Positions 16,901 to 34,000 of a stretch of 64,000 nt of DNA are shown here, piece by piece. Source of the stretch: Balanoglossus misakiensis (lineage: Eukaryota > Animalia > Hemichordata); assembly GCA_040954595.2 (NCBI GenBank), contig CM082583.2, forward strand, positions 13,552,391 to 13,616,390, in the 5' to 3' direction. A model generated the notes under the pieces. That model was not told the origin of the DNA. It saw only the letters and a program-made list of their open reading frames with translations, and did not search any database. Within the stretch, counting starts at the first letter, position 1. Each line of letters begins with the position of its first letter. Position numbers and translations under genes: made by a program.

Positions 16901-17429
16901 TGCTAACATAGAGATGTATATGCAGTAGCATTTTAACATCCAAGTAGCAAGTGTAGTATGAAATTTAAGGAGCAGGTTTCCTTTTCAAGTCAGTATATGA
17001 TAATTATTAATGCTGGAAATTATTCAAACATGTATGGTTAAGTTTGGTTACAAATAAAGATTTGTGTTCATGAGGATCAGCAAGTGATAGACTGCTTGTT
17101 TTTTTTTTCATGAATAATCCTCCATGAAACACCTCGATTGGAGGTAAAGCTGTATTCCACGGACAACGTTGCCGTGAAATGGTAATGCAGGTGGTGGTGT
17201 TTTGCAGCGATCAACAAGGACACTCATTTATGTCATGATCCAATATGGCGTGCAGTATAGTCAGCCATTTTATTTTATTTTTTCATATCTGGAACTTAGT
17301 TTTACAGAGTCAGACATGCCCAAACATGGAGTAAGAACAGTGTGCCGTGATCTAAATATATTCATTGATAACATTACATTGTAGTGTGACTGGGAGAACC
17401 CAGTACATGAAAAACTTGACGTGATCATC

Positions 17430-20400
17430 TCATACTGTAATCTGTCCTTTTAGCATGATAACTGCTTCACCAGCAATGTCAACGCGTCCATCATCATTGA
17501 CCTTGAGATGAAGGTCACCACCTCTCTTTGAAGCTTGACGAGCTGCAAAGGAAAACAAAACCCCATAATTTGATCATGAAACCTGTAGGCCAAATATCAA
17601 TCATGGATGATCAGTAGATGAAATATGTTGCTTTGTTGCATGACCTTCAAAGCAGAAAATGGAAGAGTCAGTGGTTTATAAGTTATTGGTGTTTCTTTTG
17701 GCCCTTTACACATTTTTCTGTTTGAATATTTTGGCAGCTGTTAATGTTATTCTAACAATTGTAAGTTTCCATTCTTACCATAAAGAGTTTTAGTCTGTAA
17801 TTGCTTTGACCAATAACTTGCTAGAACTGCATGAGCTGATCCTGAAAAAAAACAAAGTAAGACAAAAATATTGAACAAAATCTGGTGCACATAGGCGGCC
17901 AAATACTGAAACAAACATTCAGTAGATTCCCTAGGACAGTATTATTCAACAAATGCAGAACATATTTCATGTAAACTAAATAAACACACAATGGATGACC
18001 AATCAGGGAGTATTTTGTCTGGTTTTGGAAATTTTAACAATCAATGGGATACCCACACATAAATTGTATTTTCTCTATAAAGGTATGAACTAAACAACAC
18101 ATGTCATTTGTTACCTGTAACAGGATCTTCTGGCAAACCAAACCATGGACTGTATACACGTGACAAACAATCATAGCTTTGTTGGTTTGTGTTTTTGCTA
18201 CTCCCCTTCAAAGTCAAAATGACATCACTACAGTAATTGCCTTCTGGGTCCAAGTCTAACATGGCAGTTGTATTGGCAATATGCAACTCTAAAATCTCTC
18301 TATGAAAACAAAATTAATGTTCTGAGGAAAATCTAATATAATTTCATATACCAGTACATCAATTAGTGCCACAGACTGTACAATTGAATGGTTATTTATA
18401 CTAATTTGTACTTGTTTCATGTTTTTTTGTTTACTACATACTGCACAATCATCACTCTAACTCACCGGTGAATACCATGACACAGTCATTAACCCTTTCG
18501 ACCCTTCCCTTTTTGTTCAGGTCCAACTTCACCATAGAAAATAAAGAATGTAGACCAAACCATGGTGAGAAATTATAGCCTTTCATGCAGAGAGCTATAA
18601 ATACTTGCCGATGAAGAAAATCTTTAGTGTACCATCACTTGGTTCAAATTTTGTGCTTGTCTATCAAGAATGAACCTATTAAACTCCAAAACCATACATA
18701 CTTTTAACTTATGAAACATCTAGGAATAACCATTCAGTCACAGAATGTGTAACTTTTTTCTCTTAATTCTCTTCTCAATAATGGATGATCTGACTGCAGC
18801 AAACAAGACAGACCGTAATTGTCAACTGGTAACTGTCTCTTGATCTCGGCCAGTTTTTAAATATTCTGAATGCTTTCACAAGTTTTCACCCATGGCCAAT
18901 CAGATCAATTCATCATTGAAAAGGAGACAAGTTACAAAAAAACAAAAAAACAAACAATACCTGTAACTGGATCCTCATCAACACCATTCCAGGGACTAAA
19001 GAAGCGTGACATAAAATCATACACTTTTTCAGAGTCATCAACACACATGTTGTCATGACTACCTTTCAGAGCTGCAATGACATGTTCAACTGCATTGCCT
19101 TTAGGGTCAATACTGTACATCTTTTTAATGTTCGGCTTAAAGGCTTCAAAGTCAGATCTGGAAATATTAGAAACAGGTGGTTGAATATGATGTTGATGAA
19201 CAATGCATTTCTTCATCAAGAGTGGAAAATGTCAACATGTGATGAGAATCCAGCAACATGACAGATATGACTCCATAGTACAGTTCACCTGGTTGAACTG
19301 TATTATGATGTGGGATACATGGTACCTGAGTGTGGCGTGTCACTAGCAATGATTGCATGTCACCATCATGGATTGTATCCCCACGACAGAAGTCGCACAT
19401 TTGACTTGCAATGCCATAGACTGATACAGCTGTGTGCACACCTCTGTAACAACTCTTTGACTGTTGATCAATGTGGGACTTTCCTGTGTAAGCCACAATG
19501 AGGCCATAATTGTTGCCAATACAACATGTATACCAGTAATATTTACTACCTTTGGATCGAATCATCAAGTCTTATGATAAATGTTTTTGTTTCTTCTGAA
19601 TACTGCAAATCTTGAACAGGAAGATCCCCAACTGTAGCCTACAACACAAGAAGTTAAATCAGGTCATGTAGTTGTCTGCAATTGGAGCAAGATGACGGTG
19701 GACAACCATCTCATTAGTAATTCAACCCCACTTTGCTGACAGCGGAGATAAAATGACACTTTTACGATTACATGTACCGGGTGTCTGTATTTGGATAATG
19801 TAAGGAATGTGTTCTAGAAATAATGGTAATGTCAATCTAAAGTCAATCGTAGTATTCCTTGAAGAGTTCGTGGGAATTATTGAAGAGTTTAGATTCTCAA
19901 AGAAATTGACAAGTTACATGTACCTCAATTATTTCCTTGAAAGGTGTCACACTGCCATCCTGTCAATCAAGTTGACAAAAAAGTTAATTAATCGCTCCCT
20001 GGATGGACAGATTTCCTTACAAACAAAATCATTTTTCAGTCTTTGGTGGAACAAGGAACTTCTATCATGTATATGGAAATCATGAATATTGAGGAAACTC
20101 AGAAATGAACATTGCTTTATCATTATTATGCAAGGATCATGGACAAGAAATAAAAAAAAACACTTCTAAAGATCAGTTATGTACTATTTCCTCAAAACAA
20201 TGTTTCTTTGAAAAGCATATTTTTCATTGTCCATAAATGTATCTTTGTACTTTGGTTAAAACTATGGCATACTATAAATAATCTTGCCTGTTTTTTTGTG
20301 TCATATAAGGGGAAGTCTAGAGAAATCAAGTTTCCATGGTGACTGGCAAACACCTCTCCTCTCATCTTGGTTTGAAAGGTCAGTTTATCTGATGTATTTC

Positions 20401-23400
20401 CTGACATGAATTGGAAGCGAAAACAGAAAATGACATGTTATGATTAATGATGGAATAAAACCACATGAAAACTGTACAACCAGATTTCATGACCTTCATT
20501 GTTGAGTTAGTAGTGAGAATTCTTCATTGTAAAAGTAGGCACATGTTTTCAAAACCAACCAAAGAAGTTCAATTTTAAGCAAAACAAGCAGAATAAATGA
20601 CAGCATGTCCTCCATCTGGTACGCAAACCTTCATAGACCTAGTCTGTATTTCAAACTCTCACCAACTACATGGAAGAGTACAGCTGCTGATGCCAAAGTG
20701 GCATGTCCACATAATGGCACCTCATTAGTTGGAGTAAACCATCGAAGTTCAAATCTTGATGCTGAAACATGACAAAAAATCACATCAATTAGATGGCTAT
20801 TTTTAACACATTGTCTTACATGTATATACTAGTAACTTTCAGAAGCGCCTGAAATGAACAGAAAATCACGAAATAGTTAACTTTTGACTAATACCCTTGT
20901 AGTAGTTAGGATACATTTCCTATGATATTTTTAATCTAAATTCTGAGCTCTCATCTAACCCTGCGTACAGGTCTGTGTACGCAGAGCTAAGCTCTCATCA
21001 TGCTTCGTGTGATTTATTTAGTGACCTAAACAGTGGCTGCATTTACCAGTTTGACTTGATTCTCCTTCTTTCAAAGTTCTTACGTATGCAGTTTCAGAAA
21101 GATTCATCTCTGAAGCTATCTTCTGTTTCTCTTCATCATTCAAATCCTGTGATAGATAATCAAAACTTGATTTAGAACGATTAAGCGGATACATCCAAAC
21201 TGTCAATGCGCTAACTCTGGTTTCTTAAAGGGGAAATCCGCTGTAGCTGATTTCTAAATAATTTGGTAGCTTTGATATCTCTCTTTCAGAAAAAAACATA
21301 TTCGCCATGTATAGGTCGCGCGATTTTTTACAAAATCTAGGGAAAGTTGGCAGAATTTCCAATATGGCGTTTACTGTAATTTGAATCATGGGAAAAAAAG
21401 CGCCAGGACCAACTTCCGCCCACCTTGGTGAGGGTGATACCATTTTCCGATTGGTGTCACTGTGTCACAAGCTAAGCGTATTTGCTTATTTTTCATGGGT
21501 TATAGCTCATGAAAACTGTCAATAGATGACAAATTTTCGACTTTGCTGATGATTGTTTATTAACTGATGCAAAGAACAAACAATAGCTATGAAAATACGC
21601 CTAGTCTGTCGCCCAGTGACACCAATCGGAGAATGGTATCACCCACACCATGGTGGGCGGAAGTTGCTCCAGGCGCTTTTTTTCCCATGATTCAAATTAC
21701 AGTAAACGCCATATTGGAAATTCTGCCAACTTTCCCTAGATTTTGTAAAAAATCGCGCGACCTATACATGGCGAATATGTTTTTTTCTGAAAGAGAGACA
21801 TCAAAGCTACCAAATTATGTAGAAATCAGCTACAGCGGATTTCCCCTTTAAAAGAGTTTTTGGAAGAAAACCTCGACGTACGAAACGAATCTAGGAAAAC
21901 CTCCATTTCATCACGTGACGTCGTATTCAAATTTAGTAGTCTGGCTTTCGAATCTGCAGAGACAAGCGTGTTTTTTCGCTAGACTATTGGCAACGAACTG
22001 GTCGAGGGAGGATGCTAATGATGAACTAGGGAGCATAAGTCTGTATGTATATATATCGTATGACTAACGAGGCGATATCCATAATATCAACCGAGGACGA
22101 AGTCCGAGGTTGATATTATGGATGACGCCGAGGTAGTCATACGATATTTAACATACACAACGAGTGAATTCGGTGCAGGCCCCTCTACAAGTAAACACCC
22201 CTCAACCGACAATACAGTGTTTAAAAATCTTTTGTATAGACCCTAAGCGGTTGATATCAGCCTAACTTTCAAAATGGTATGGTCATACTTACGGAAAGTA
22301 TTTAATTATTCAGCGTTTTGCACCTGGGATGCATATATTACCTAGTTCAACCAATTATTGTTTATTATATTATACCAGTATATTGATGGTGTAAATCACG
22401 CTATTTGATTGGTCGAGACACGACACGTGACCGTGATATATTAGCCATATACCACAGTCATATATCATAGTTAAAGAAAATGCCTTTTTAAAATGTTTCA
22501 TGCAAAGTTTCAATATACTGGCATAATATAATAGCAATAAAACACCCCCAGCCATGGTATACCACTCGATTTTGACCAGTTCAACTCCATATACGCACTC
22601 GCTATCGCTCGTGCGTATATGTCGTGAACTGGTCAAAATCTCGTGGTATACCATGGCTGGGGGTGTTTTATTGCTTAAGTAATAAGCTCACACGCAATGT
22701 TTCTTCCAATTATATTGGCTGTGCATGTTTTACACATGCACAGTGGCATATATTATAATATAAATGCACGGCCACGAGGCACAATTTCTTTCTACCTGAA
22801 CGTGTCATAGTGGCAGCATGGCGCATGAGGTGTACGTGTATCCCGATTTTTCTGATATCTCTGATGAAGAGTTAATTGAAGCCTCACAAGCAGCAGAATA
22901 TTTGAACGAGCTTGGCTTCGAAAATATGGATATAGCAGTCAGCAGCATTCCTTCGGTGAGTCACGAATTCTTTTATTCATTCCGCCATTTTCACCTTTTT
23001 ATCGTGTACGTTGTCGTTGAACATGCACGTAAGAATGTATATTGAATCATTTTTTATTTCGTTAAAGGACATTCCCAGAAGGCGGTTTGCTGACCCAGTG
23101 TCGGATTCCTGCGTACAGGGGGTTGCAAAAATTCCATTCCCAAGAATACTCAACGCCGTAATATGTGGGCGCTACGGACTTTCAACGAATGGGCCATGGC
23201 CAGAAATGTTACATTTGTAGTTTTGTCTGCATTTTTATTTGGAGGTAGGTCGTGATATTGTCTCGAGGCGTAGCCGAGAGTCAATATCACGACCGTACCG
23301 CCAAATATTCATTTTCGAGGCATGATGGCTGAAATATCACGAGACGAAGTCGAGTGAAATTTCTGCTATCATGCCGAGAGTTCAATAGGTTGATATCACC

Positions 23401-23606
23401 CCACCCCAAAAATATCACCTCAAAATGAGGTTGCTCTCTAAAATATCAACCGCTAAATCTATTGTACTATCTGTGACGAGTTGTGTATTTAAAAAGTCCC
23501 TTACCTCGTTTTCAAGCAAACAAACTGCTGCAGGGTTTCCACTGAAAGGTTTATTGGTGAACGCATCAACCGTGTACAGAGGAAGAACTCTGCGACTTGC
23601 CATCAT
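17430..23606 (-). CDS. PBLD: Phenazine biosynthesis-like domain protein (PhzF/diaminopimelate-epimerase fold)
   Basis: Exons 23606-23505 ([17 protein letters not shown]), 21146-21047 (EMNLSETAY), 20761-20663 ([19 protein letters not shown]), 20400-20288 (GC donor), 19959-19924, 19638-19550, then 19157-18961 OR 18299-18115 (both end EDPVT), 17841-17779 ([11 protein letters not shown]), 17542-17430 ([17 protein letters not shown]). AATAAA on the minus strand near 17270-17279. Confidence 0.94.
18115..18299 (-). CDS. PBLD: PBLD duplicated exon 7b (alternative to 7a at 18961-19157)
   Basis: ttttcatag|A GAG ATT...GTT ACA G|gtaaca. 185 nt, phase 2 to 1 like exon 7a (197 nt). Encodes [63 protein letters not shown]. 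Confidence 0.85.
21229..21847. mobile_element. Foldback MITE, 619 bp, ~255-bp TIRs, TTAA TSD, AG...CT ends (Kolobok-type)
   Basis: TTAA|aggggaaatccgctgtagctga... and ...tcagctacagcggatttcccct|TTAA. The near-identical opposite-strand ORFs 21225-21443 and 21567-21851 in the track are the two arms. Confidence 0.9.
22042..23400 (+). mobile_element. Crypton-like (tyrosine recombinase/DUF3504-associated) degenerate or nested element with multiple hairpins
   Basis: ATG 22818-22955, an intron, then 23068 onward [21 protein letters not shown]. After a 1-nt frameshift in an A run it reads [26 protein letters not shown], resembling the N-terminal motif of CryptonA/ZMYM/KCTD1-type proteins. Long imperfect palindromes at 22042-22156, 22533-22675, 23241-23302 and 23319-23375. 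Boundaries are approximate. Confidence 0.65.
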
Positions 23607-31008: not shown

Positions 31009-34000
31009 TTACAGCTGAATATTATTGTCAGTGTCTCTCAGTAACACCGGCCAATACACCAGGTTAAAGGTTATGAAGCAGATAGGAAATGCATAACGAC
31101 AACATTTGTCAATCCGGAAAGCGCGAGAAACTTCCTCGTGTTGTTTCACTTGTTTTTCGATGTCGAGAGAGTCCTCTGTTCCAGAAGCACGTGCTTGAAA
31201 TCCATTTCCCTGATTTGGGCTGACTTCAATGAGAGCTAGCTCTGCTCCAGCTGACGTTAACACATCCTGGAATTTGATTGTCAAAAAAGTAACATCGTTA
31301 TTTCTAACTTGTTGAGACATTTGATGATTTTAAAGTAATGCTGCGAAAAATTGACGGTTGCGCTGAAAGTAATGCGACAGTCTCAGTACATGTACTGTAC
31401 TATGCAAAAACTCAATAATCACCTTGATTCTGCTTCTTCCGAATCTTTGCAAGCAATAATTGACGCATGCGTATTCAAAAAGTGCCCCAGTAACAAATAT
31501 CAAGCACAGCGCCATCCATACATCTATTGCCTATTAGACGAAAAAGAAAAACATTCCGTTTTGAGGACTGAGACCTGAATGATAGCGACGAGATAATTCT
31601 GTGTTGGAGAAAGAAAGAGACAAATGTCAAGTTTTTAATTTGGCATGATGACATTGTATTGTGAACACGTTATGCCGAGATTGATTGGTTCTTTTGAGCT
31701 CCATATATACAATGCATGCCAATAATGTTTAAACTTACTGTGGCGTATGAAACTTTTGGTAATGCTTCATGTACACCAATGGCCTGTGTAGTTATTGTGA
31801 GAAGTGATGTTATGCACAGTGATATACGTGCCGGTGATGCAAACGGGTTGATGAAAAAGGAAACCCACGACAGAAGCACCAATAGAAAGCTTGGGATGAA
31901 TATAATCAACCAATAATAGCCGAGCTCTCTTCTCAATGTAAAAATCGCCATGATGCAGGTAAAATTTCCTGTGGATATTGTAAAGTAGTTGAAAGAATTG
32001 GTCATTGAACCATCGGGAATGTCAAGAACGTCCATATTAAAAGAAAGTTACAAAGACAAGTCGTAACGGTCAGACCTTGGGCCCCATTTCCAATTATGTA
32101 TAAATTGCATATAATTTAATAGATTGATTTTTTATAACACACCTGTGCACTGGAATGAATGTCAACGCAATTATAGAAAATATGTGTAATAACTGACCGG
32201 TGTAGTAAAGTTTATCACATCGACCGAGTCTGTGATCGGTGACAGTAAACTGTTGCAATTCGAAGATAGTGTCGTTCGTAAGCGGTGTGTCGTCTTTCCA
32301 TTCAAATATGAGTTCTTGAGTTGTGTATCCATCTGCAGCAAGTAGAATGGTTACAATGTTACGCATTCTCAGCTATAGGATAAAATATAGCGAAAATCAT
32401 AAATCTTTAAGTATTTTAACGATTGTACGAAATCGAAAGCTTTCACTATAGTGACAAATAAAAAGGGTGGTAATTCACTTACAGCTCTCCATTTGTAAGT
32501 AACACATTTGCCGATCAAGAGGAAACTTTGAAAATCTCATTGGACAGGCTAAGGTTAATGTCAACCTGTGAAGTGGAGAAAAATGGAAGTAATCACAATG
32601 GCTCTAATGGAAGATTGCTTTGAAAGACTTCAACGTGGTGAGATCATGTGTTTTCCAAAGAACCACTACAAATTTTCAAAAGTACTGAAGTATTTGAATA
32701 TTTTGAGAGCATACACAATATCAACATACTTGTCGTTTTACTAATTGTGTTAGTGGTATTTGAACAAAAACGGACGGCAATCGGTTCTTAGTAAATTATG
32801 GATGAGAATACTCTGTGTTTCTATATCAATTATAAAACCAGATGTGAAATTAATATTCTCACGACCATGTACGTGATTTGAGTACAACTACGGTTCTCGA
32901 GAAACAGACATTCAATATTAATAACCAATAATAAAAATACTGCCTGTCTATATACATGTAAAAGGTGTATTGACTAGTTGACGAAGGCTGTAGGAAAAAC
33001 AGCAATTGATCATAGACCTAAAATATTAAATGATATGACATCATGTTTTTAAGGCATATCAAAGATGTCATTTACTAGACAATGCATTATCCTTGTGAGA
33101 AATTGTTTGTAAGCATATACACTTCATAACCTTAATTTGTTAACTTGGTATAGAAACATTAGCATTTTAAATTTTAGAAGAGTTTGTCACCCTACCGTAC
33201 ACTGTAAAGAACATCGCCGTTTGGCATGAACCGCAGCAGAATATTATCTCTGGTGACGTCGTGAAAATACGCATCTTTTTCGTTTGTGAAAAATAAATCC
33301 GGTATCCATATTTTATCTAACATGAAGGCTGACGGTGGTATATGATTTGTTGTTAGGTTGTATTTCAGACGAGGGTCATTCCAGCGCATGCGCAAGAAAA
33401 TTGTCATCCCGAAATCCTAAATACAACGAAACCGATTAAGAGATTGATAGATTTGCAGGTGAGATATTGCCTTCAGATATAGCAACTTTCAATTCTGCTG
33501 CAAAGTTACAGGCAAAAGACTCTGATAATCGTGATAATACAGATCTTATCCACATCTAAATTATAAATAAGTACAAATCCACCAAAATGGGCATTACGAA
33601 ATGACGTCTCAAATAATAATAAAAAGGCTCTTCGTATCGGCATTAATTATTTGTGACTTAAACAAGCACGACTGGCTGATGTATACTCACCATGGTTACT
33701 TCTTTAATACTGTCAAATCTACTAATATGAATGTCAATATGGATCGTCGTCGGCAGACCTTTAAAGAGACGAGCACTTATGTAATTTTGATAGGGTGGCA
33801 AAAATCGAAATATGCGACTAAGATATAGCTTATGAAAGATTACCAGAGATGATAGCTTATAAAAGCTTATGAAAGATTACAGGGTGGACATATTTGACTT
33901 ACGAGGAATTGCTTTTTAATACTTAGCTTCGTGCCCCGCATTAAGACGATTTGCTGGGAAAACAAGTTACTGTGGATGCGACGCGTTCACTACCGAGACA

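What the first reader, a model, noticed from the sequence alone, without database searches (positions are those of the whole stretch)
18115..19157. Mutually exclusive duplicated active-site exon in a PhzF/PBLD enzyme
Seen: two homologous exons in tandem. 7a (19157-18961, 197 nt) reads [67 protein letters not shown]. 7b (18299-18115, 185 nt) reads [63 protein letters not shown]. Both have intact splice sites and open frames, and both lengths are 2 mod 3, so including both or neither shifts the frame. DPxGN, VI, LKGS, YD, SR, SPW and EDPVTG are kept despite heavy DNA divergence. Established: in PhzF-fold proteins the EDPxTG motif and the preceding SRxF strand line the active-site cleft opposite the SET/LCGH half. 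Inference: one gene makes two isoenzymes that share the catalytic N-domain but differ in one substrate wall. I know of no description of this for PBLD, whose animal substrate is unknown.
Basis: partly seen in the sequence, partly recalled or inferred. Interest (0 to 1): 0.8.

Follow-up and report, generated by a model that had tools for sequence, protein, structure and literature searches.

The report
Either-or pocket exons in acorn-worm PBLD
An enzyme gene of unknown substrate (PBLD), likely from an acorn worm, carries two old, intact copies of the exon predicted to build one wall of its binding pocket, and gene models of related acorn worms use one copy or the other, so one gene likely makes two enzymes predicted to prefer different small molecules.

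Summary
7a (197 nt) and 7b (185 nt) are homologous, open, same-phase exons of a PBLD/PhzF-family gene; each alone gives a full protein (302 or 298 aa). The pair is old: Ptychodera, Glandiceps and Saccoglossus have both exons at identical lengths (65 and 61 aa), and a-copies and b-copies form separate clades. RefSeq isoforms of Glandiceps and Ptychodera differ only in this exon. Catalytic-type residues are shared or invariant. All four exon-7 positions that line the ligand in PhzF differ between a and b in 4 of 4 species (versus 18 of 58 columns, P=0.007). A Gly kept in 135 of 136 other PBLDs is aromatic in 7a and Asp in 7b. Not shown: junction reads, tissue use, any activity. One old Saccoglossus model includes both exons. 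Verdict: a new member of a known kind (coq-2-type pocket-switch exons), useful as a natural pocket series for an orphan enzyme.

The parts
23505..23606 (-). PBLD coding exon 1 (two in-frame ATGs, at 23606 and 23603; the model used the second)
21047..21146 (-). exon 2; holds the Glu equivalent to PhzF Glu45
20663..20761 (-). exon 3; LCGH motif (Cys, Gly73 and His74 equivalents)
20288..20400 (-). exon 4; ends at a GC donor
19924..19959 (-). exon 5 (36 nt)
19550..19638 (-). exon 6, single copy here; Thr at the PhzF His155 equivalent. This exon is the swapped one in amphioxus, Antedon and Lingula models
19510..19531 (-). intron-6 element Z: 13/13 complementary to 7b 18279-18267, weaker alternative pairing to 7a 19062-19045 (candidate regulatory pairing, unconfirmed)
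19343..19366 (-). intron-6 element Y: pairs with 7b 18179-18160 (-23.9 kcal/mol) or the matching part of 7a (-17.2) (candidate, unconfirmed)
19236..19259 (-). intron-6 element X: pairs with the last ~25 nt of 7a, up to its donor (-29.3 kcal/mol; candidate silencer of 7a, unconfirmed)
18961..19157 (-). exon 7a (65 aa); predicted pocket codons His 19084-19082, Phe 19003-19001, Asn 18988-18986, Val 18982-18980; invariant Asp 18973-18971
   Evidence: codon places counted
18115..18299 (-). exon 7b (61 aa); predicted pocket codons Asp 18226-18224, Val 18157-18155, Phe 18142-18140, Leu 18136-18134
   Evidence: codon places counted
17779..17841 (-). exon 8; completes the TGS motif
17430..17542 (-). 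exon 9 coding part, to the TGA stop

Best explanation
Exons 7a and 7b are an old tandem duplication in an acorn-worm-lineage PBLD gene, likely spliced one-or-the-other, giving two isoforms with the same catalytic-type residues and a differently lined pocket that is predicted to accept different substrates. Shown: two intact homologous exons in the same phase; both kept in four species; catalytic-type residues shared. Inferred from orthologue gene models: either-or splicing. Inferred from PhzF: cofactor-free proton-shuttling chemistry on a small amino-acid-like carboxylate, in which Glu (PhzF 45) moves the proton, the LCGH and TGS helix ends hold the carboxylate and Asp (PhzF 208) holds the amine. 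Exon 7 would set the far wall. 7a narrows it with His/Phe/Tyr plus Phe, suiting a smaller or stacking group. 7b puts in Asp and opens it with Val, suiting a larger group that is cationic or donates hydrogen bonds. Double inclusion at the normal sites would be removed by nonsense-mediated decay. The choice may be helped by intron-6 sequences that pair with 7a or 7b (weakest step). A second acorn-worm PBLD gene keeps the usual Lys/Gly/Tyr pocket and likely the ancestral job.
For: Isoform pairs identical outside exon 7: Glandiceps X1/X2 (41 differences, all in the exon), Ptychodera X1/X5 and X2/X6 (40 each). Of 6 Ptychodera isoforms, 3 are a-type, 3 b-type, none both. Identity a-a 57-68%, b-b 52-75%, a-b 38-46%; lengths 65 and 61 aa in 4 of 4 species. 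Tree: a-clade 99/97, b-clade 100/100, stems 0.64 and 0.83 against 0.25 for the rest of the gene. Both Glandiceps isoforms model as a whole PhzF fold (pLDDT 90.5 and 90.0); the a model matches 1s7j at Z 34.3 and PhzF at Z 26-28. PhzF ligand contacts (PMC4586147) in exon 7 are Ala183, Met198, Tyr203 and Val205. All 4 share no residue between a and b, versus 18 of 58 ungapped columns (P=0.007); 3 of the 6 fixed-difference columns are among them (P=0.0025). The only two residue columns at least 85% conserved elsewhere and lost in both copies are the Ala183 (Gly 135/136; 27/28 after dereplication) and Met198 equivalents. These two positions covary in 134 distant relatives: 13 of 20 non-Gly rows also lose Tyr/Phe, versus 6 of 114 Gly rows (relatedness not corrected). 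Precedent: coq-2 (PMC7434440).
Against: No reads were examined for this species or any orthologue. RefSeq X isoforms are automatic models (their reliance on aligned transcripts is recalled, not checked). Saccoglossus has no b-only model in what I saw: the new model is a-only and the old one carries both exons in frame. The pocket map rests on chained sequence alignments, not coordinates. The Ala183 register is clean but shifted by two; the shifted column also differs between a and b. The pocket list came from a paper, but I had already seen the alignments. 7a pairs a bulky 183 with a bulky 198, against the family trend, and could be a narrowed or dead pocket. I found no reported substrate for animal PBLD; the human papers listed describe signalling roles. 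Exon 7 differs at many surface positions too.
Confidence: 0.62

Rival explanations
1. Either-or splicing is real, but the isoforms differ in something other than substrate choice: protein partners, stability, rate or door dynamics, or one of them (likely 7a) is a ligand-binding or inactive form.
For: Listed human PBLD papers describe signalling roles. Residues 203-208 of PhzF also form the door of the site. 14 of the 18 no-shared-residue columns lie outside the four mapped contacts. 7a has two bulky residues where the family usually balances them.
Against: Catalytic-type residues are invariant in both copies. Fixed changes are enriched at ligand contacts. The exon-6 swap of other animals hits the fifth contact with a charge flip.
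Confidence: 0.23
2. One exon is the real one and the other is a minor or decaying relic.
For: Saccoglossus's current model has only 7a, and its 7b is the most diverged copy (52-59%, end branch 0.85).
Against: Both exons are open, of fixed length and with invariant catalytic motif in 4 of 4 species from three families; both are annotated in two species.
Confidence: 0.07
3. Both exons are spliced in together through the AG two bases inside 7b, giving one longer protein with a repeated segment.
For: That join is in frame in the window, and the old Saccoglossus model P0003 has this form.
Against: The inner acceptor is GAG directly behind a TAG (GAG being disfavoured is recalled). The newer Saccoglossus model dropped it. 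None of 8 Ptychodera and Glandiceps isoforms has it. P0003 is the only protein fetched up to with two ED-motifs at exon spacing.
Confidence: 0.04
4. Assembly artefact, or the remnant of a whole-gene duplication.
For: The Ptychodera isoforms suggest two near-identical gene copies in that assembly.
Against: The exons are 55% identical in DNA, the flanking exons are single-copy, and the same pair exists in three other genomes.
Confidence: 0.01

Closest known systems
coq-2 exons 6a/6e of helminths, annelids and molluscs (PMC7434440: abstract and section 6 read)
   Same: Homologous mutually exclusive internal exons in an enzyme; a few conserved residue switches next to the substrate; conserved across species.
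   Different: coq-2 has a tested outcome (ubiquinone versus rhodoquinone) and one ancestral-like exon. Here both exons depart from the usual pocket, the substrate is unknown and nothing is tested.
Homologous MXEs in general, e.g. PKM, PFKP (PMC7954323 abstract; PMC9741552 passage) and ACSL6 gate exons (PMC1543647, search listing only)
   Same: Tandem-duplicated exons that keep the fold and change residues at or near functional sites.
   Different: PBLD is absent from the main text of PMC9741552, from the one supplement of PMC8373072 and from six supplements of PMC7954323. Here the same family uses two different exons in different phyla.
PhzF/PhzC family PF02567: E. faecalis 1s7j, C. difficile 4dun, YddE, YHI9, P. 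fluorescens PhzF; vertebrate PBLD
   Same: Fold, and the Glu45, His74, Asp208, Thr211-Gly-Ser equivalents.
   Different: Only 25% identical to true PhzF, Cys at PhzF Ala72, different pocket lining, no phenazine pathway in view. No exon swap was seen among the vertebrate isoforms fetched (not searched systematically).
Competing RNA pairings at MXE clusters, docking site and selectors (PMC6071210, abstract only)
   Same: One upstream intron holds elements able to pair with either alternative.
   Different: The partners here lie inside the exons, and no conservation or covariation could be tested.

Membership tests
PhzF/PBLD family (PF02567) | Profile match | tested here: met
   All six closest orthologue proteins carry PF02567; the two exon fragments hit it below the whole-protein cut-off.
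PhzF/PBLD family (PF02567) | Two-domain DapF-like fold | tested here: met
   Glandiceps a-isoform model: 1s7j Z 34.3, rmsd 1.6, 260 aligned. The b model has the same element order; it was not fold-searched.
PhzF/PBLD family (PF02567) | Glu45, His74, Asp208, Thr-Gly-Ser equivalents | tested here: met
   Present in both window isoforms.
True PhzF, DHHA isomerase EC 5.3.3.17 | Pocket residues Ala72, His155, Ala183, Met198, Tyr203 as in PhzF | tested here: not met
   Cys, Thr, His/Asp, Phe/Val, Asn/Phe here; 25% identity.
True PhzF, DHHA isomerase EC 5.3.3.17 | DHHA turnover | not testable with these tools
   Needs an assay.
Homologous mutually exclusive exons | Tandem homologous exons, similar length, same phases, intact splice sites | tested here: met
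Homologous mutually exclusive exons | Both copies conserved across species | tested here: met
   4 of 4 species; separate a and b clades.
Homologous mutually exclusive exons | Exactly one copy in mature RNA | tested here: inconclusive
   8 of 8 Ptychodera and Glandiceps models and the new Saccoglossus model have one; the old Saccoglossus model has both; no reads.
Homologous mutually exclusive exons | Enforcement by conserved competing RNA structure | tested here: inconclusive
   Intron-6 pairing exceeds background, found post hoc; no orthologous intron DNA.
coq-2-type substrate-switch exons | Conserved residue switches at ligand-contact positions | tested here: met
   4 of 4 mapped positions in 4 of 4 species; mapping by sequence, not coordinates.
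coq-2-type substrate-switch exons | One exon ancestral-like, the other derived | tested here: not met
   Both lost the Gly and Tyr conserved in other animals; both have long stems.
coq-2-type substrate-switch exons | Isoform-specific substrate or product | not testable with these tools
   Needs purified isoforms or exon-specific knockdown.

The most novel reading that the evidence does not exclude
Animal PBLD is a substrate-switchable enzyme whose pocket has been put under splice control at least twice. One switch is an exon-6 pair flipping Lys to Asp/Glu in amphioxus, echinoderms and a brachiopod. The other is this exon-7 pair flipping aromatic to Asp in acorn worms, chosen by intron-6 RNA pairing with the exons themselves. 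PBLD would then act on at least two substrate classes of opposite distal charge, and these isoforms would be the direct route to the unknown substrate of human PBLD.
Probability: 0.33. Interest if true: 0.75.

Novelty: new member of a known kind. Interest (0 to 1): 0.52.

Why it matters
PBLD is conserved from bacteria to people and is studied as a tumour suppressor and antiviral regulator, yet my searches found no substrate for it. These isoforms are natural swap experiments: the same scaffold and catalytic residues with different pocket walls. They point to three positions that likely set specificity (PhzF 155, 183 and 198 equivalents) and predict ligands of different charge, which makes metabolite screens interpretable. 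Repeated use of either-or exons on adjacent pocket-building exons in different phyla also argues that catalysis, not only scaffolding, is under selection in animal PBLD. The splicing mechanism itself is textbook, and unchecked notes from this scan report similar exon pairs in other genes of this genome, so the surprise is moderate.

Tried and rejected
No whole genome was held for the window. No RNA holder was listed for 17400-21200, so no reads were laid; this blank is no evidence either way. Orthologous intron DNA: 308 metagenome pattern matches, none confirmed. Extra exon copies: none for exons 6, 8, 9 and no third exon 7; the exon-5 profile found nothing, even the real exon. Steric exclusion: rejected, the intron between 7a and 7b is 661 nt. 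Intron-6 matches as an inverted exon relic: unlikely, because the matching pieces are not in collinear order. Pairings of other introns: 16 of the other 17 pairs were reached by at least one shuffle; the intron between 7a and 7b against 7a was not (0 of 8, -21.6 kcal/mol). The global fold of 1461 nt was not informative (no shuffles). Dating the duplication: a+b as one clade is not rejected (p-AU 0.55) but not shown, and one amphioxus protein groups weakly with a (84/86). Convergence of P0161 on the 7b pocket: its grouping with the acorn-worm gene was not rejected (p-AU 0.24), so convergence is not established; the Atlas gave only the family name. Literature searches for a PBLD exon swap or substrate (only the top 15-30 listings seen, open-access library only) found none. 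One fish paper lists pbld1 as differentially spliced in a heatwave; the passage gives no event type and its Data S3 was not read. Look-ups of earlier findings by sequence and by words gave nothing relevant. dN/dS against orthologues could not be run (proteins only).

Full report
1. Observation. The minus strand carries a nine-position PBLD gene from 23606 to 17430. At position 7 there are two exons, 7a (19157-18961) and 7b (18299-18115), each with AG/GT ends and starting in phase 2 and ending in phase 1. Spliced singly they give open frames of 302 and 298 aa. Together they stop at codon 248, 237 nt before the last junction, which fits nonsense-mediated decay by the usual 50-nt rule (recalled). 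With neither, the stop falls 11 nt before the last junction and the EDPVTG motif is lost. The copies share 27 of 61 residues and 55% of bases, with dN 0.58 and dS 1.54. Profiles find two exon-7 copies and one each of exons 6, 8 and 9.

2. Relatives. Each exon's best hits are acorn-worm PBLDs: 7a finds Saccoglossus and Glandiceps X1; 7b finds Ptychodera X4/X6 and Glandiceps X2. The rest of the gene is 86, 79 and 71% identical to Ptychodera, Glandiceps and Saccoglossus, so the window is likely a ptychoderid-like enteropneust. Glandiceps X1 and X2 differ at 41 alignment positions, all in exon 7; Ptychodera X1/X5 and X2/X6 differ at 40, likewise. Ptychodera X3/X4 carry a few extra differences elsewhere, suggesting a second near-identical copy in that assembly, and X4 has two one-residue insertions in 7b. 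Against this reading, Saccoglossus has an a-only current model and an older model with both exons in frame. The window allows that join through an AG two bases into 7b, a GAG acceptor behind a TAG. No RNA data could be examined.

3. Age and selection. Exon lengths are 65 and 61 aa in all four species; identity is 57-68% among a copies, 52-75% among b copies and 38-46% between them. In a 33-row tree of the exon, a and b are each one clade (99/97 and 100/100) on long stems (0.64, 0.83), against 0.25 for the rest of the gene. With 64 columns deeper forks are unresolved and the bootstrap had not fully settled. The duplication therefore predates the split of these three families (hundreds of millions of years, recalled); both copies changed fast and were then held. 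These species also keep a second PBLD gene, a separate clade, with the usual pocket.

4. Where the differences fall. Both Glandiceps isoforms model confidently as the PhzF fold (a-isoform searches). PMC4586147 (abstract and passages) names Glu45, His74 and Asp208 as catalytic, Gly73, Thr211 and Ser213 as hydrogen-bonding, and Leu69, Ala72, His155, Ala183, Met198, Tyr203 and Val205 as ligand contacts; PMC5524880 (part 1 of 6 and passages) supports Glu45 as the proton shuttle. I numbered PhzF from the 1t6k chain printed and carried the positions over through YddE. The 198-213 block is unambiguous. His155 follows from the chained alignments. Ala183 is in register and shifted by two. Result for positions 155/183/198/203/205: usual animal PBLD Lys/Gly/Tyr/Asn/Ile; 7a Thr/(His,Phe,Tyr,Tyr)/Phe/Asn/(Val,Ile); 7b Thr/Asp/Val/(Phe,Phe,Cys,Asp)/Leu. 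Asp208 and Thr211 are invariant. All 4 exon-7 contacts share no residue between a and b, against 18 of 58 ungapped columns (7 gapped columns dropped; P=0.007); the shifted Ala183 column also qualifies. Gly183 is kept in 135 of 136 other named-search proteins (27 of 28 after dereplication at 70%). Among 134 distant representatives (136 of the 148 new ones were kept by length, 2 dropped for gaps), loss of that Gly goes with loss of Tyr/Phe198: 13 of 20 versus 6 of 114 (kinship uncorrected). 7b follows that trend; 7a does not. One unnamed PBLD, P0161, has the same Asp/Val/Phe triad; whether independently is open.

5. A second switch in the same family. Isoform pairs of amphioxus (B. floridae, B. 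lanceolatum and a hybrid), Antedon and Lingula differ only across the segment matching exon 6, with Lys or Asp at the His155 equivalent. Apostichopus and Patiria models carry a Glu form. The deuterostome acidic forms share a one-residue insertion that Lingula lacks. The Lineus pair does not show the swap, and the Limulus and Mytilus isoforms aligned share one exon-6 form. These are protein models only; I saw no genomic DNA for them. The window gene has one exon 6, with Thr.

6. How the choice may be made. Intron 6 pairs with 7a at -27.3 kcal/mol (0 of 25 shuffles; 1 of 157 window tiles as strong) and with 7b at -23.9 (0 of 25; 9 of 157); the sum is reached by 0 of 157 tiles. Element X covers the last 25 nt of 7a up to its donor and would loop out its acceptor (mean pairing probability 0.66 in a local fold). 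Element Z, 25 nt past the exon-6 donor, is a 13-nt perfect complement near the start of 7b; 0 of 313 tiles reach 13. This resembles competing-structure models (PMC6071210, abstract). It was found post hoc among 19 tested pairs and lacks any conservation test, so it is a lead only.

7. Mechanism. Most likely (0.62): either-or splicing gives two isoenzymes with common proton-shuttling chemistry and different distal pockets. The exon structure and conservation are shown; exclusivity is inferred from orthologue models (about 0.9); altered substrate choice is inferred from residue mapping (about 0.7 given that). DapF uses two cysteines (PMC13728532, passages; the family comparison also in PMC5690661, passages). 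Here the second position is Thr, so by recalled analogy with Cys/Thr proline-racemase-family dehydratases a one-base isomerase or dehydratase is likelier than a two-cysteine racemase.

8. Known versus new. The class is known: coq-2 switches substrate by such exons with two residue changes (PMC7434440, abstract and section 6), and MXE residues cluster near functional sites (PMC7954323, abstract). I found no description for PBLD (searches; text or supplement look-ups); subscription papers and unread supplements could hold one. The isoforms exist unremarked in RefSeq. Human PBLD is called an isomerase protein without a substrate in the passages read (PMC11711403). Unchecked notes on this genome report similar pairs in PDE10, RNF213 and TNF-like genes, which lowers the surprise. 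Verdict: real, conserved, a new member of a known kind; interest 0.52.

Noticed in passing
P0014/P0011, P0129/P0127, P0126/P0128, P0131/P0013, P0130/P0012, P0142/P0078, P0052/P0138, P0137/P0140; equivalent of window 19638-19550: Either-or exon-6 forms of PBLD in amphioxus, Antedon and Lingula, flipping Lys to Asp at the PhzF His155 equivalent; Glu forms in Apostichopus and Patiria. Possibly an older switch than the one reported here and worth its own study.
   Followed up: partly
P0028, P0035, P0043, P0044, P0143-P0145 (amphioxus) and five others: PBLD paralogues with Cys at both the LCGH position and the Thr211 equivalent: a two-cysteine layout like DapF-family racemases and epimerases, so candidate animal amino-acid racemases.
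   Followed up: no
P0020 (Branchiostoma belcheri model): Nearly identical to P0017 in the N-domain but different in exons 5, 6, 7 and 9; may be alternative C-domain cassettes or a chimeric model. Its exon 7 groups weakly with 7a.
   Followed up: partly
P0161 (unnamed, 289 aa): A eukaryote-type PBLD about 50% identical to many animal PBLDs carries the 7b pocket triad Asp/Val/Phe; convergence not established.
   Followed up: partly
window 20287 (-): Exon 4 ends at a GC donor.
   Followed up: no
window 19571-19167 (-): A 134-codon stop-free frame runs through intron 6 (41% GC), out of frame with exon 6; no Pfam hit. Probably chance.
   Followed up: partly
P0010, P0008 (Ptychodera X3, X4): A second near-identical Ptychodera copy has Asp for the catalytic Glu and two one-residue insertions in 7b; haplotype, paralogue or sequencing error.
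   Followed up: no
window about 31670-32047 (-) and 36900-62000 (+): Neighbours: an exon of a Cys-loop ligand-gated channel (PF02932) and a laminin gene with N-terminal, EGF and G domains.
   Followed up: no
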